IMG/VR virus record: IMGVR_UViG_2698536646_000013
Strand: one strand, 5' to 3'
From: a virus
Lineage: Duplodnaviria > Heunggongvirae > Uroviricota > Caudoviricetes
Length of the DNA stretch: 55,213 nucleotides
In this document: positions 49,828 to 55,213 of the stretch, piece after piece
How positions within the stretch are numbered: the first letter of the stretch is position 1
Layout of the letters: the number at the start of each line of letters is the position of its first letter
Notes under the pieces: generated by a model
Told to the model about the DNA's origin: nothing
The model's database searches: none
The model's input: the letters and a program-made list of their open reading frames with translations, nothing else
Translations under genes and position numbers: made by a program

Positions 49828-52428
49828 ATGAGCACAAAACCACTCTTCCTGTTACGGAAAGCGAAAAAATCATCCGGTGAACCTGACGTCGTCCTGTGGG
49901 CAAGCAACGATTTTGAATCGACCTGTGCCACTCTGGACTACCTGATCGTTAAGTCAGGTAAAAAACTGAGCAGCTATTTTAAAGCTGTTGCCACGAATTT
50001 TCCTGTCGTTAATGACCTGCCCGCTGAAGGTGAGATCGATTTTACCTGGAGTGAACGCTATCAACTCAGCAAAGACTCCATGACATGGGAACTAAAACCG
50101 GGAGCAGCACCAGACAACGCTCACTATCAAGGCAATACCAACGTCAACGGCGAAGACATGCCTGAGATTGAGGAGAATATGCTACTCCCAATTTCTGGCC
50201 AGGAACTGCCCATTCGTTGGCTTGCTCAACACGGCAGCGAAAAACCGGTAACGCACGTTTCACGCGACGGACTCCAGGCATTACACATTGCTCGGGCTGA
50301 AGAACTACCGGCTGTTACTGCCCTGGCTGTTTCCCACAAAACCAGCCTGCTCGACCCGCTGGAAATTCGCGAACTCCACAAACTGGTTCGTGACACTGAC
50401 AAAGTTTTCCCTAATCCTGGTAATTCAAACCTGGGACTGATAACTGCTTTTTTCGAAGCATACCTGAACGCTGACTACACCGATCGAGGACTGCTGACAA
50501 AAGAGTGGATGAAGGGTAATCGTGTTTCACACATCACTCGCACGGCTTCCGGTGCTAATGCTGGCGGCGGAAACCTCACCGATCGCGGCGAAGGTTTCGT
50601 ACACGATCTGACGTCACTGGCGCGGGACGTAGCCACTGGCGTACTGGCCCGTTCAATGGATCTGGACATCTATAACCTTCATCCGGCACACGCTAAACGC
50701 ATTGAGGAAATTATCGCTGAAAATAAACCGCCCTTTTCTGTTTTCCGCGACAAATTCATCACCATGCCTGGCGGGCTGGATTATTCCCGCGCCATCGTGG
50801 TTGCGTCCGTAAAAGAAGCACCAATTGGGATCGAGGTCATCCCCGCGCACGTCACTGAATATCTGAACAAAGTACTGACTGAAACCGATCATGCCAACCC
50901 TGATCCGGAAATCGTGGATATTGCCTGCGGTCGCTCCTCTGCCCCGATGCCGCAGCGAGTAACAGAAGAAGGAAAACAGGATGATGAAGAAAAACCGCAA
51001 CCATCTGGAACAACGGCAGTTGAACAGGGAGAGGCTGAAACAATGGAACCGGACGCAACTGAACATCATCAGGACACGCAGCCGCTGGATGCTCAGTCAC
51101 AGGTAAATTCTGTTGATGCGAAATATCAGGAACTGCGGGCAGAACTCCATGAAGCCCGGAAAAACATTCCATCAAAAAATCCTGTCGATGCCGATAAATT
51201 GCTTGCTGCATCACGTGGTGAATTTGTTGACGGAATTAGCGACCCGAACGATCCGAAATGGGTAAAGGGGATCCAGACTCGCGATTGTGTGTACCAGAAC
51301 CAGCCAGAAACGGAAAAAACCAGCCCGGATATGAATCAACCTGAGCCAGTAGTGCAACAGGAACCGGAAATAGCCTGCAATGCCTGCGGCCAGACTGGCG
51401 GGGATAACTGCCCTGACTGTGGTGCGGTGATGGGCGACGCAACATACCAGGAAACATTCGATGAAGAGAGTCAGGTTGAAGCTAAGGAAAATGATCCGGA
51501 GGAAATGGAAGGCGCTGAACATCCGCACAATGAGAATGCTGGCAGCGATCCGCATCGCGATTGCAGTGATGAAACTGGCGAAGTCGCAGATCCCGTAATC
51601 GTAGAAGACATAGAGCCAGGTATTTATTACGGAATTTCGAATGAGAATTACCACGCGGGTCCCGGTGTCAGTAAGTCTCAGCTCGATGACATTGCTGATA
51701 CTCCGGCACTGTATTTGTGGCGTAAAAATGCCCCCGTGGACACCACAAAGACAAAAACGCTCGATTTAGGAACCGCTTTCCACTGCCGGGTACTTGAGCC
51801 GGAAGAATTCAGTAACCGCTTTATCGTAGCACCTGAATTTAACCGCCGGACAAACTCCGGAAAAGAAGAAGAGAAAGCGTTTCTGAGGGAATGCGCAAGC
51901 ACAGGAAAAACGGTTATCACTGCCGAAGAAGGCCGGAAAATTGAACTCATGTATCAGAGCGTTATGGCTTTGCCGCTGGGGCAATGGCTTGTTGAAAGCG
52001 CCGGACACGCTGAATCATCAATTTACTGGGAAGATCCTGAAACAGCAATTTTGTGTCGGTGCCGTCCGGACAAAATTATCCCTGAATTTCACTGGATCAT
52101 GGACGTGAAAACTACGGCGGATATTCAACGATTCAAAACCGCTTATTACGACTACCGCTATCACGTTCAGGATGCATTCTACAGTGACGGTTATGAAGCA
52201 CAGTTTGGAGTGCAGCCAACTTTCGTTTTTCTGGTTGCCAGCACAACTATTGAATGCGGACGTTATCCGGTTGAAATTTTCATGATGGGCGAAGAAGCAA
52301 AACTGGCAGGTCAGCTGGAATATCACCGCAATCTGCGAACCCTGGCTGACTGCCTCAATACCGATGAATGGCCAGCTATTAAGACGTTATCACTGCCCCG
52401 CTGGGCTAAGGAATATGCAAATGACTAA
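49828..52428 (+). CDS. recE: Exonuclease VIII (RecE)
   Basis: 866 aa, [41 protein letters not shown]... to ...[11 protein letters not shown]. Stop overlaps the recT start. Confidence 0.95.
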
Positions 52429-53230
52429 GCAACCACCAATCGCAAAAGCCGATCTGCAAAAAACTCAGGGAAACCGTGCACCAGCAGCAATTAAAAATAA
52501 CGACGTGATTAGTTTTATTAACCAGCCATCAATGAAAGAGCAACTGGCAGCAGCTCTTCCACGCCATATGACGGCTGAACGTATGATCCGTATCGCCACC
52601 ACAGAAATTCGTAAAGTTCCGGCGTTAGGAAACTGTGACACTATGAGTTTTGTCAGTGCAATCGTACAGTGTTCACAGCTCGGACTTGAGCCCGGTAGCG
52701 CCCTCGGTCATGCATATTTACTGCCTTTTGGTAATAAAAACGAAAAGAGCGGTAAAAAAAACGTTCAGCTAATCATTGGCTATCGCGGCATGATTGATCT
52801 GGCTCGCCGTTCAGGTCAAATCGCCAGCCTGTCAGCCCGTGTTGTCCGTGAAGGTGACGAGTTTAATTTCGAATTTGGCCTTGATGAAAAGTTAATACAC
52901 CGCCCAGGAGAAAACGAAGATGCCCCTGTTACCCACGTCTATGCTGTCGCAAGACTGAAAGACGGAGGTACTCAGTTTGAAGTTATGACGCGCAAACAGA
53001 TTGAGCTGGTGCGCAGCCAGAGTAAAGCTGGTAATAACGGGCCGTGGGTAACTCACTGGGAAGAAATGGCAAAGAAAACGGCTATTCGTCGCCTGTTCAA
53101 ATATCTGCCCGTATCAATTGAGATCCAGCGTGCAGTATCAATGGATGAAAAGGAACCACTGACAATCGATCCTGCAGATTCCTCTGTATTAACCGGGGAA
53201 TACAGTGTAATCGATAATTCAGAGGAATAA
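52421..53230 (+). CDS. recT: Recombinase RecT (single-strand annealing protein)
   Basis: 269 aa from [23 protein letters not shown]..., ATG at 52421 inside the ATGACTAA overlap with recE. Confidence 0.95.
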
Positions 53231-53285
53231 TTCAGCCTGGCGGTGTAATGCACCGCCAACTTGAAATATTTTTATGAGAAAAATT

Positions 53286-53435
53286 ATGAGATATGACAAT
53301 GTTAAACCATGTCCATTTTGTGGTTGTCCATCAGTAACGGTGAAAGCCATTTCAGGATATTACCGAGCGAAGTGTAACGGATGCGAATCCCGAACCGGTT
53401 ATGGTGGAAGTGAAAAAGAAGCACTCGAACGATGA
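53286..53435 (+). pseudogene. ralR: ralR (Lar restriction-alleviation / type I toxin), apparently truncated by a nonsense codon
   Basis: MRYDNVKPCPFCGCPSVTVKAISGYYRAKCNGCESRTGYGGSEKEALER then TGA. Reading through would give WNKRTTGNNNGGVHV, the C-terminus I recall for K-12 RalR (64 aa). Confidence 0.55.
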
Positions 53436-53472
53436 AATAAACGAACCACTGGAAATAATAATGGAGGTGTTC

Positions 53473-53661
53473 ATGTATAAAATTACCGCCACTATTGAAA
53501 AGGAAGGTGGCACTCCTACTAACTGGACAAGATATTCAAAATCTAAACTAACGAAATCAGAATGCGAAAAAATGCTCTCAGGTAAAAAAGAAGCAGGCGT
53601 TTCCAGAGAGCAGAAAGTAAAACTGATAAATTTTAATTGCGAGAAACTTCAGTCCTCGTGA
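53473..53661 (+). CDS. ydaC: YdaC-like small protein
   Basis: 62 aa MYKITATIEKEGGTPTNWTRYSKSKLTKSECEKMLSGKKEAGVSREQKVKLINFNCEKLQSS, RBS GGAGG. Confidence 0.6.
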   Translation: MYKITATIEKEGGTPTNWTRYSKSKLTKSECEKMLSGKKEAGVSREQKVKLINFNCEKLQSS

Positions 53662-53760
53662 ATTGCATTGTATTCAAATTAAAACTTCATAGCTGATTAT
53701 TAATAATCAACATCGGGCGTCAATTTAAGTCTAACATTGGCGCCTGCCAGAGGTGATGCG

Positions 53761-53976
53761 ATGGCACAAGTAATCTTTAATGAAGAGTGGATGGTTGAAT
53801 ACGGCCTGATGCTTCGCACTGGTCTGGGGGCCAGACAAATTGAAGCATACCGCCAGAACTGTTGGGTGGAAGGCTTCCACTTCAAACGAGTATCTCCTTT
53901 AGGGAAGCCAGACAGTAAGCGAGGGATTATCTGGTATAACTATCCAAAGATAAATCAGTTTATCAAAGACTCATGA
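53761..53976 (+). CDS. xisR: Excisionase XisR (YdaQ)
   Basis: 71 aa [51 protein letters not shown]... immediately upstream of intR. Confidence 0.85.
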
Positions 53977-53977
53977 T

Positions 53978-55213
53978 ATGTCTAAATTACCAACAGGTGT
54001 CGAGATTCGAGGTAAATACATTCGCATCTGGTTCATGTTTCGAGGAAAACGATGTCGGGAAACATTGAAAGGCTGGGAGGTTACTAACAGTAACATTAAA
54101 AAAGCCGGGAATTTAAGAGCGTTGATAGTTCATGAAATCAATTCCGGTGAGTTTGAGTATTTAAGACGTTTTCCCCAGTCCAGCACTGGGGCAAAAATGG
54201 TGACAACGAGGGTCATAAAAACGTTCGGGGAGCTTTGTGATATCTGGACAAAAATTAAAGAAACAGAGTTAACAACAAACACAATGAAGAAAACGAAATC
54301 ACAATTAAAAACACTCAGGATAATAATTTGTGAGAGTACTCCGATATCGCATATTCGTTATAGCGATATCTTAAACTACCGGAATGAACTGCTGCATGGA
54401 GAAACGCTTTACCTGGATAATCCAAGATCCAACAAAAAAGGAAGAACCGTGCGCACAGTTGATAACTATATCGCCCTGCTCTGTTCGTTGTTACGTTTTG
54501 CGTATCAGTCGGGATTTATATCAACCAAACCATTTGAAGGAGTAAAGAAATTACAGAGAAACAGAATAAAGCCTGACCCGTTATCTAAAACAGAATTCAA
54601 TGCATTAATGGAAAGTGAAAAAGGACAGAGCCAGAACTTGTGGAAATTTGCCGTATACTCCGGGCTTCGTCACGGGGAACTGGCTGCTCTGGCGTGGGAG
54701 GATGTGGATTTCGAGAAGGGAGTTGTGAATGTCAGAAGAAACCTGACGATACTGGATATGTTCGGTCCCCCAAAAACAAATGCGGGGATCCGGACGGTAA
54801 CACTACTGCAGCCTGCTCTTGAAGCACTGAAGGAGCAATACAAACTGACCGGGCATCATCGCAAAAGCGAAATCACTTTTTATCATCGGGAGTACGGCAG
54901 AACCGAAAAGCAAAAACTGCATTTTGTTTTCATGCCCAGAGTGTGTAACGGAAAACAGAAACCTTATTACTCGGTAAGCAGTTTGGGTGCGAGATGGAAT
55001 GCAGCAGTAAAACGTGCTGGTATTCGCCGCCGTAATCCGTACCATACGCGGCATACTTTTGCCTGCTGGCTGTTGACGGCAGGAGCGAACCCGGCGTTTA
55101 TAGCCAGCCAGATGGGGCATGAAACTGCGCAGATGGTGTATGAAATTTACGGTATGTGGATTGATGACATGAACGACGAACAGGTAGCCATGTTGAATGC
55201 GCGGTTATCGTAG
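53978..55213 (+). CDS. intR: Rac-type prophage integrase IntR (tyrosine recombinase)
   Basis: 411 aa, MSKLPTGVEIRGKYIRIWFMFRGKRCRETLKGW... with catalytic YHTRHTFACWLL...MGHETAQMVYEIY. Stop codon is the last codon of the window. Confidence 0.95.
   Translation: MSKLPTGVEIRGKYIRIWFMFRGKRCRETLKGWEVTNSNIKKAGNLRALIVHEINSGEFEYLRRFPQSSTGAKMVTTRVIKTFGELCDIWTKIKETELTTNTMKKTKSQLKTLRIIICESTPISHIRYSDILNYRNELLHGETLYLDNPRSNKKGRTVRTVDNYIALLCSLLRFAYQSGFISTKPFEGVKKLQRNRIKPDPLSKTEFNALMESEKGQSQNLWKFAVYSGLRHGELAALAWEDVDFEKGVVNVRRNLTILDMFGPPKTNAGIRTVTLLQPALEALKEQYKLTGHHRKSEITFYHREYGRTEKQKLHFVFMPRVCNGKQKPYYSVSSLGARWNAAVKRAGIRRRNPYHTRHTFACWLLTAGANPAFIASQMGHETAQMVYEIYGMWIDDMNDEQVAMLNARLS

What the first reader, a model, noticed from the sequence alone, without database searches (positions are those of the whole stretch)
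53274..53480. ralR appears truncated by a TGG-to-TGA change
The reading frame MRYDNVKPCPFCGC...SEKEALER stops at TGA (53433-53435). If that codon were TGG the frame would continue WNKRTTGNNNGGVHV to a TAA at 53478-53480, matching the 64-aa RalR C-terminus as I recall it. RalR is the DNase toxin of a type I toxin-antitoxin pair (antitoxin sRNA RalA), so this may be an inactivated toxin or a sequencing error. The ydaC start lies in the would-be extension.
Basis: partly seen in the sequence, partly recalled or inferred. Interest (0 to 1): 0.35.

Follow-up and report, generated by a model that had tools for sequence, protein, structure and literature searches.

The report
Common natural nonsense allele of ralR
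The Rac-prophage gene ralR in this window does end early at a TGA where E. coli K-12 has a tryptophan codon, but this is a common inherited E. coli allele already in the databases, not a sequencing error, and it most likely weakens or disables the small toxin.

Summary
The frame MRYDN...ALER stops at TGA 53433-53435. K-12 has TGG there and continues WNKRTTGNNNGGVHV to a TAA that corresponds to 53478-53480 (64 aa).

It is not a sequencing error. The same haplotype (CGA-TGA) is present in 310 of 5426 complete E. coli genomes, and the exact 49-aa protein occurs on at least 1000 contigs. RefSeq lists it as WP_001443846.1 and names it an intact RalR.

Haplotype counts are AGA-TGG 1518, CGA-TGG 127, CGA-TGA 310 and AGA-TGA 0. 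Every outgroup examined has TGG. TGA is therefore derived, and the counts fit a single G-to-A change on the CGA background.

The stop replaces the first residue of the W-N-x-R motif. Across distant Lar-family domains this motif is as invariant as the four zinc-binding cysteines (W in 187 of 187). The truncated protein keeps the zinc ribbon but loses the end of its only helix. Loss or strong attenuation of function is the best inference, but it is untested.

The antitoxin sRNA RalA (53479-53657, minus strand), its 16-nt pairing site in ralR and the ydaC gene are all intact.

This is an ordinary, already catalogued allele of a known system. The useful points are an annotation caveat and a natural truncation mutant. 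Interest is low.

The parts
53286..53435 (+). Truncated ralR (lar) coding sequence: 49 codons plus a TGA stop.
   Evidence: Searches give the frame. PGAP annotates the identical sequence as a 150-nt ralR CDS (WP_001443846.1) in E2865 and NCTC10444. Pfam PF14354 scores 39 bits over residues 5-48, matching model positions 2-52 of 58. NCBIfam NF007260 scores 126.9 bits against a cutoff of 113, matching model positions 1-49 of 64.
53433..53435 (+). Premature opal codon TGA that replaces Trp50 (TGG in K-12 and in every outgroup examined).
   Evidence: One search gives the alignment to K-12. One search shows TGG at the aligned position of the close relatives and a W-N/Q-x-R motif at the end of the domain in 18 of 19 related loci from other taxa.
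53430..53430 (+). Linked synonymous difference in codon 49 (CGA here, AGA in K-12) that marks the haplotype on which the stop arose.
   Evidence: Counts are CGA-TGG in 127 genomes, CGA-TGA in 310 and AGA-TGA in 0.
53436..53480 (+). Remnant of ralR codons 51-64 (NKRTTGNNNGGVHV) plus the original TAA. It is no longer translated in this frame unless the TGA is read through.
   Evidence: Apart from the stop, the sequence is identical to K-12. It overlaps the ydaC ribosome-binding site and start, and the 3' end of ralA.
53408..53423 (+). The 16-nt site in ralR mRNA that pairs with RalA (AAGTGAAAAAGAAGCA, codons 41-46). It is intact and ends 10 nt upstream of the new stop.
   Evidence: One search finds a 14/16 direct-repeat match to 53580-53595 with an 11-nt perfect core. 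This agrees with the description in PMC4041452: a 16-nt repeat, 11 nt contiguous, covering Gly-Ser-Glu.
53479..53657 (-). ralA, the antitoxin sRNA gene, full length.
   Evidence: Rfam RF02694 RalA scores 225.1 bits against a gathering score of 170, E 3.4e-55, model positions 1-179 of 179. There are no differences from K-12 within it. The K-12 ncRNA annotation b4714 maps to the same coordinates.
53580..53595 (-). The segment of RalA that is complementary to the ralR mRNA site.
   Evidence: Its reverse complement, TGCTTCTTTTTTACCT, is consistent with the repeat that was mutated in PMC4041452.
53473..53661 (+). ydaC/rcbA (DUF1187), 62 aa. Its start lies within the former ralR 3' end.
   Evidence: Pfam PF06688 scores 132 bits over model positions 1-61 of 61. 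PGAP annotates a 189-nt CDS. K-12 has AGA instead of the TGA stop at 53659-53661, giving 69 aa.

Best explanation
This is a naturally occurring, vertically inherited and recombinationally shuffled nonsense allele of ralR (lar) in a Rac-type prophage integrated next to ttcA.

The haplotype counts fit a single G-to-A transition that turned Trp50 (TGG) into an opal stop on a haplotype already carrying CGA at codon 49.

The product is a 49-residue protein. It keeps the four-cysteine zinc ribbon (C9, C12, C30, C33) and most of the single alpha-helix. It lacks the invariant W-N-x-R motif that ends the Lar domain, and it lacks the 11-residue, poorly conserved, probably disordered tail.

The most likely consequence (inference) is loss or strong attenuation of RalR activity, meaning DNase toxicity and/or restriction alleviation. 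The module would then be a toxin-defective type I toxin-antitoxin locus.

The antitoxin sRNA RalA persists. One possible reason, which was not tested, is that ralA lies antisense to the intact ydaC gene.

Shown here: the allele, its frequency, its derived state, the motif conservation, and the intact RalA and pairing site. Inferred: the functional loss.
For: Sequence.

Not an error: 310 of 5426 complete genomes carry CGA-TGA, all at >=99% identity over the 50-nt probe and exact at both SNPs. The 40 best records listed are 100% identical over 470 nt. The exact 49-aa protein is on at least 1000 contigs.

Derived state and origin: haplotype counts are AGA-TGG 1518, CGA-TGG 127 and AGA-TGA 0. E. 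ruysiae, Shigella, Citrobacter, Kluyvera and Serratia have TGG at the aligned position, and distant Lar homologues also carry W-N/Q-x-R.

Motif importance:
- In 195 distant Lar domains, W50 is present in 187 of 187 ungapped cases, N51 in 183 of 187 and R53 in 163 of 180. This equals the conservation of the four cysteines.
- In an 81-sequence alignment the only invariant columns are C9, P10, F11, C12, G13, C30, C33, W50, N51 and R53.
- The Pfam score falls from 53.5 to 39 bits with loss of the last 6 model positions.
- Among the 150 best family representatives, the only matches ending before query position 50 are the two RalR-YdaC fusions and three multi-repeat proteins.

Structure: the AlphaFold model (mean pLDDT 78) has strands 17-22 and 25-30 and a helix at 43-52. 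pLDDT averages 47 over residues 61-64, and 57-59 and 61-64 fall below 50, so the cut falls inside the only helix.

Antitoxin side: RalA is full length and the pairing site is intact.

Age of the allele: it sits in mosaic Rac backgrounds. E2865 is identical to the window over 51233-53726 but about 3.5% diverged in xisR/intR, so the allele is not brand new.
Against: No experiment addresses a truncated RalR. All four zinc ligands and 49 of 64 residues remain. The 49-aa product still passes the curated cutoffs of NF007260 (126.9 vs 113), TIGR03655 (40.3 vs 39.6) and PF14354 (39 vs 28.6).

The 40 listed TGA records show no further decay across the 470 nt around the gene. That would fit a still-useful gene as well as a recent lesion.

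Basal UGA read-through by Trp-tRNA would regenerate exactly the wild-type protein at a low level.
Confidence: 0.7

Rival explanations
1. The 49-residue RalR is still a functional toxin or anti-restriction protein. On this view the zinc ribbon is the active part and the C-terminal 15 residues are dispensable or only modulatory.
For: All four cysteines and the beta-hairpin are retained. The product passes the curated HMM cutoffs and PGAP annotates it as intact. The allele persists in 310 genomes without visible secondary decay in the 40 listed records. Residues 54-64 are poorly conserved and predicted with low confidence.
Against: W50, N51 and R53 are as invariant as the zinc ligands across the Lar family. 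Among the 150 best family representatives, none ends before the motif except the RalR-YdaC fusions and multi-repeat proteins. Truncation removes about 14.5 bits of Pfam score in 6 positions.
Confidence: 0.18
2. The allele is leaky. Near-cognate Trp-tRNA reads UGA at a low percentage, which inserts the original Trp and yields authentic 64-aa RalR at a low dose. The mutation would then act as a dimmer rather than an off-switch.
For: In E. coli K-12, UGA read-through by Trp-tRNA(Trp) competing with RF2 was measured at about 2% at 37 C and about 4% at 25 C (PMC10570021). The base after the stop is A (UGA-A); from my own recollection of Engelberg-Kulka 1981, this is a leaky context. The downstream frame to TAA 53478-53480 is still open and identical to K-12.
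Against: No stimulatory RNA structure lies 3' of the stop (z = -0.37). No suppressor tRNA, or any tRNA, is present in the window. The downstream sequence is constrained anyway by the ydaC start and the ralA 3' end, so its conservation says nothing. From my own knowledge, not tested here, non-K-12 strains have a more active RF2 than K-12, so read-through should be lower. RalR toxicity was only shown on overexpression.
Confidence: 0.1
3. The TGA is a sequencing or assembly error in this window.
For: None, beyond the fact that reads cannot be inspected here.
Against: The identical two-SNP haplotype is in 310 complete genomes from many laboratories and platforms. The exact protein is on at least 1000 contigs. 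The window matches NCTC10444 with 1 mismatch in 6213 nt, including this site.
Confidence: 0.01

Closest known systems
RalR/RalA type I toxin-antitoxin system of E. coli K-12 cryptic prophage Rac (Guo et al. 2014, PMC4041452); RalR is the same gene as Lar (restriction alleviation and modification enhancement; King & Murray 1995, cited from memory)
   Same: The locus and gene order are the same: recE-recT-ralR-ydaC-xisR-intR next to ttcA. Residues 1-49 are 100% identical to K-12 RalR. RalA is 179/179 nt identical to K-12 and scores 225 bits on Rfam. The 16-nt pairing site is the same.
   Different: Codon 50 is TGA instead of TGG, giving 49 aa instead of 64 aa and removing W-N-K-R and the tail. 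Other differences are a synonymous AGA>CGA at codon 49, one T fewer in the upstream T-run (5 versus 6 in K-12) and a ydaC of 62 rather than 69 aa. The surrounding prophage is larger than K-12 Rac, with terminase genes present.
Lar family restriction alleviation proteins (Pfam PF14354, TIGR03655)
   Same: The CPFCG...C..C zinc-ribbon core is present, and the HMM scores are above the gathering thresholds.
   Different: It lacks the terminal W-N-x-R motif, which is invariant in the family.
Chromosomal type I toxin genes inactivated in situ (for example the hok homologues of E. coli K-12, described as mostly inactive in the introduction of PMC4041452)
   Same: It is a toxin ORF carrying a disabling-looking lesion, with the antisense RNA gene still present.
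   Different: Here the lesion is a single nonsense codon late in the ORF, and inactivity is inferred rather than demonstrated. ralA also lies antisense to an intact protein-coding gene (ydaC), which could independently account for its retention.

Membership tests
RalR (NCBIfam NF007260 equivalog) | Whole-protein HMM score at or above the curated cutoff (113 bits) | tested here: met
   126.9 bits for the 49-aa product, but it matches only model positions 1-49 of 64. The 64-aa form scores 166 bits.
RalR (NCBIfam NF007260 equivalog) | Full-length 64-aa product as in K-12 b1348 | tested here: not met
   The product is 49 aa, with a stop at 53433-53435.
RalR/RalA type I toxin-antitoxin system | Rac context: downstream of recT, upstream of ydaC-xisR-intR, at ttcA | tested here: met
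   ORFs; annotated identical loci; K-12.
RalR/RalA type I toxin-antitoxin system | Trans-encoded antitoxin sRNA RalA present, with 16-nt complementarity to the ralR coding region | tested here: met
   RF02694 scores 225.1 bits, full length, at 53479-53657 on the minus strand. The repeat 53408-53423 / 53580-53595 matches at 14 of 16 positions with an 11-nt perfect core.
RalR/RalA type I toxin-antitoxin system | Toxin is active (growth inhibition, non-specific DNase) | not testable with these tools
   This needs the expression and DNase assays of PMC4041452. The conservation analysis argues against full activity.
Lar_restr_allev (PF14354 / TIGR03655) | Two CxxC pairs (zinc ribbon) | tested here: met
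   C9, C12, C30 and C33 are present. These columns are invariant in the family.
Lar_restr_allev (PF14354 / TIGR03655) | C-terminal W-N-x-R motif | tested here: not met
   The stop replaces W50. The motif is present in 187 of 187 (W), 183 of 187 (N) and 163 of 180 (R) distant domains.
Lar_restr_allev (PF14354 / TIGR03655) | HMM score above the gathering threshold | tested here: met
   PF14354 scores 39 against 28.6. TIGR03655 scores 40.3 against 39.6, which is marginal.
Programmed stop-codon read-through | Stimulatory downstream RNA structure or a dedicated suppressor tRNA | tested here: not met
   The fold of 53400-53500 is no better than shuffles (z = -0.37). There is no tRNA gene in the window.
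Programmed stop-codon read-through | Detectable full-length product in vivo | not testable with these tools
   Only the basal UGA read-through figures for K-12 from the literature are available.

The most novel reading that the evidence does not exclude
The opal codon may work as a translational dimmer rather than a knockout. The near-cognate suppressor of UGA in E. coli is Trp-tRNA, so every read-through event restores exactly the ancestral Trp50 and produces authentic 64-aa RalR at a few percent of the normal dose. The dose would rise under conditions that raise UGA read-through, such as low temperature or ribosome-targeting stress. On this reading, the lineage carrying the allele would keep a condition-dependent trickle of toxin or anti-restriction activity, which would explain why the allele persists without further decay.
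Probability: 0.06. Interest if true: 0.5.

Novelty: already known. Interest (0 to 1): 0.15.

Why it matters
The main value is as an annotation caveat. Hundreds of complete genomes, including O26, O111 and O103 Shiga-toxin-producing strains listed, carry a gene labelled 'endodeoxyribonuclease toxin RalR' that lacks the family's invariant W-N-x-R motif. Toxin-antitoxin or anti-restriction censuses that trust the product name will count it as intact.

The allele is also a ready-made natural truncation mutant for asking whether the conserved C-terminal motif of Lar-family proteins is needed for DNase toxicity or restriction alleviation. The papers found here contain no such experiment. It opens no larger question.

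Tried and rejected
- Sequencing error: rejected on population counts.
- A recombinant or independent origin on the K-12 background: the AGA-TGA haplotype has zero matches.
- A solved structure of a relative: none by sequence (best E 0.56). None by fold at a significant level (best Foldseek E 0.11; only generic zinc ribbons such as eIF2-beta, ELOF1 and RPC11).
- Published truncation or C-terminal mutagenesis of RalR: Guo et al. has 0 occurrences of 'truncat' or 'C-terminal'. Reviews on restriction alleviation gave nothing usable on Lar. King & Murray 1995 is not in the held library.
- A second, intact Lar-family gene in the window that could compensate: none (six-frame hmmsearch).
- A suppressor tRNA in the window: none.
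- A read-through-stimulating structure: none.
- An effect of the two SNPs on RalA pairing: they lie 7 and 12 nt beyond the 16-nt site, and complementarity does not extend there.
An alignment of returned proteins was used instead.

Full report
**1. Observation**

Translating 53286-53480 gives MRYDNVKPCPFCGCPSVTVKAISGYYRAKCNGCESRTGYGGSEKEALER, then a stop, then NKRTTGNNNGGVHV and a second stop. The TGA is at 53433-53435 and the TAA at 53478-53480. The coordinate 53274 given as the start is an upstream in-frame ATG (MRKIMRYDN). The K-12 annotation starts at the ATG that corresponds to 53286.

K-12 MG1655 ralR (b1348) is 195 nt, or 64 aa. Over 53231-53700 the window differs from K-12 at four places:
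- One T fewer in the T-run upstream of ralR (5 here, 6 in K-12).
- C instead of A at 53430 (CGA versus AGA, both Arg49).
- A instead of G at 53435 (TGA versus TGG, Trp50 to stop).
- T instead of A at 53659, which gives ydaC a TGA stop at 62 aa where K-12 reads on to 69 aa.

The ydaC start (ATG 53473-53475) lies in the would-be ralR extension, as stated in the finding.

**2. Real allele or error?**

I queried 5426 complete E. coli genomes with 50-nt probes designed so that every 28-nt megablast seed spans both variable positions. A hit therefore requires the exact two-SNP haplotype. The counts were:

| Haplotype (codons 49-50) | Genomes |
|---|---|
| CGA-TGA (the window) | 310 |
| AGA-TGG (K-12) | 1518 |
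| CGA-TGG | 127 |
| AGA-TGA | 0 |

The locus as a whole is found in 1922 genomes. The three non-zero counts add up to slightly more than 1922, and some genomes hold more than one place (up to 3), which probably accounts for the excess.

The exact 49-aa protein is recorded on at least 1000 contigs in the 15-billion-protein collection. NCBI and UniRef name it RalR or a Lar-family protein. PGAP annotates it as a normal 150-nt ralR CDS, WP_001443846.1, not as a pseudogene. The window's last 6.2 kb differs from E. coli NCTC10444 (calf isolate) by a single base elsewhere. A sequencing error is therefore excluded for practical purposes.

**3. Direction and origin of the change**

All related loci fetched from other taxa that encode a recognisable homologue have TGG at this point. 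These are E. ruysiae, Shigella flexneri, Citrobacter braakii, Kluyvera, Serratia, and very distant Lar-family genes from Chitinophagales, Thermoguttaceae, Bombella, Oscillospiraceae, Clostridia and Desulfobacterales. TGA is therefore derived.

The stop occurs only with CGA at codon 49, and CGA-TGG exists as an intermediate. The simplest history is one G-to-A transition on the CGA haplotype.

The allele is not very young. In strain E2865 it sits in a block identical to the window over 51233-53726. That block is joined to an xisR/intR segment with 53 differences in about 1.5 kb. The block has therefore been recombined into different Rac backgrounds.

**4. What is lost**

Pfam PF14354 (Lar_restr_allev) matches the 64-aa protein over model positions 2-58 of 58 at 53.5 bits. 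It matches the 49-aa protein over 2-52 at 39 bits. The last six positions thus carry about 14.5 bits.

A profile search of 1.84 billion representative proteins found 3601 family members at E <= 0.001. In 195 distant domains from the best 150 proteins, conservation at the RalR positions was:

| RalR position | Conserved residue among ungapped cases |
|---|---|
| 50 | W in 187 of 187 |
| 51 | N in 183 of 187 |
| 53 | R in 163 of 180 |

The four cysteines are equally invariant among ungapped cases (C9 185/185, C12 184/188, C30 186/192, C33 189/191).

In an 81-sequence alignment of single-domain members, the only invariant columns are C9, P10, F11, C12, G13, C30, C33, W50, N51 and R53.

An AlphaFold model built on that alignment (mean pLDDT 78) shows a beta-hairpin (17-22, 25-30) and one helix (43-52). 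Confidence falls after residue 50 (block means 59 for 51-60 and 47 for 61-64; 57-59 and 61-64 are below 50). The stop therefore cuts the last turn of the only helix and removes the W-N-K-R motif. The remaining 11 residues are poorly conserved and probably disordered.

No solved structure of a relative exists by sequence. By fold there are only weak zinc-ribbon similarities with E >= 0.1.

**5. What is retained**

- Rfam finds RalA full length on the minus strand at 53479-53657 (RF02694, 225 bits against a gathering score of 170). There are no differences from K-12 within it.
- The 16-nt ralR site that pairs with RalA is at 53408-53423, and its partner is at 53580-53595 (14 of 16 positions, 11-nt perfect core). 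This matches the description in Guo et al. 2014.
- The two SNPs lie 7 and 12 nt beyond the pairing site and do not change complementarity.
- ydaC (DUF1187) is complete, matching model positions 1-61 of 61.
- There is no second Lar-family gene in the window.

**6. Mechanism**

My best explanation is that this is a nonsense allele that disables or strongly attenuates RalR. That would leave a toxin-defective type I toxin-antitoxin locus. RalA may survive because it is antisense to the intact ydaC gene, but that was not tested.

The allele, its frequency, its derived state, the motif conservation and the intact antitoxin side are all shown by the results above. The loss of activity is an inference from conservation. 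Guo et al. report toxicity and DNase activity only for the 64-aa protein and did no truncation.

The rivals are:
- **The zinc-ribbon core suffices and the 49-aa form still works.** In support, it passes all curated HMM cutoffs and shows no secondary decay.
- **The UGA is leaky.** Trp-tRNA is the near-cognate reader of UGA in E. coli, with about 2-4% read-through measured in K-12 (PMC10570021). Read-through would restore exactly the ancestral residue. I found no stimulatory structure and no tRNA in the window, so only basal leakage can be argued.
- **Sequencing error.** Rejected, as above.

**7. Comparison with what is known**

This is the RalR/RalA system of Rac, in the same position, with the same antitoxin and the same first 49 residues.
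- As a member of the RalR equivalog it passes the score test but fails the full-length test.
- As a Lar-family domain it has the zinc ribbon but fails the W-N-x-R test.

The allele is already catalogued in RefSeq and UniRef under the RalR name. I found no paper that comments on the truncation. The paper library is limited, and King & Murray 1995 is not in it.

**8. Verdict**

It is an ordinary natural variant of a known system, useful mainly as an annotation caveat and as a natural mutant for testing the conserved C-terminal motif. Interest is 0.15.

Noticed in passing
window 53659-53661 (and 53657): ydaC/rcbA ends at TGA here (62 aa, the full DUF1187 model). K-12 has AGA and reads on to 69 aa. 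Both lengths occur among related genomes. The SNP lies 2 nt upstream of the mapped RalA 5' end, so it might also touch RalA initiation.
   Followed up: partly
window 53408-53423 and 53580-53595; proteins P0012, P0015: Public databases contain in-frame RalR-YdaC fusion proteins. P0012 (...GGSEKEA|GVSREQKV...) is what a deletion between the two 16-nt direct repeats would give, and that deletion would remove part of ralA, including its 3' end. Other lesions seen near the same place are W50S (P0002) and a frameshift after T54 (P0005). This suggests that the ralR 3' end is damaged recurrently.
   Followed up: partly
window 30214-55213: The Rac-type prophage here is larger than K-12 Rac. In the nearly identical E. 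coli NCTC10444 locus, terminase small and large subunit genes lie beyond trkG. Pseudogenes (ynaK, tolA fragment) are also annotated there. The last 25 kb match NCTC10444 at about 100%.
   Followed up: partly
window 51233-55213 versus locus L001: Mosaicism: strain E2865 carries the same TGA allele in a block identical to the window over 51233-53726. It then has 53 mismatches across xisR/intR (53727-55213).
   Followed up: yes
window about 53264-53273: The T-run upstream of ralR has one T fewer than in K-12 (5 here versus 6). This lies in the region between the recT stop and the ralR start, and any effect on ralR expression is unknown.
   Followed up: no
proteins P0026, P0041, P0058, P0091: The Lar domain occurs in tandem arrays in some proteins, with 4 to 9 matched stretches in proteins of up to 665 aa. 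This is unexpected for a family known as tiny single-domain phage proteins.
   Followed up: no
loci L006, L007; phage record PP818812.1 (H91): Metagenome-assembled contigs labelled 'uncultured Roseburia sp.' and 'Proteobacteria bacterium' carry ralR coding sequence with the same protein and the same codons 44-56 as the E. coli loci. An 'Actinobacillus phage vB_Apl-pPE4' record is 90.6% identical to this region. Mis-binning or mislabelled hosts are the likely explanation.
   Followed up: no
records such as NZ_AP018808.1 (E2865), O26 and O103 strains: Several genomes that carry the TGA allele have a second ralR-like place in the chromosome. One search finds only one TGA place per genome, so the second copy has another allele and may be intact.
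   Followed up: no
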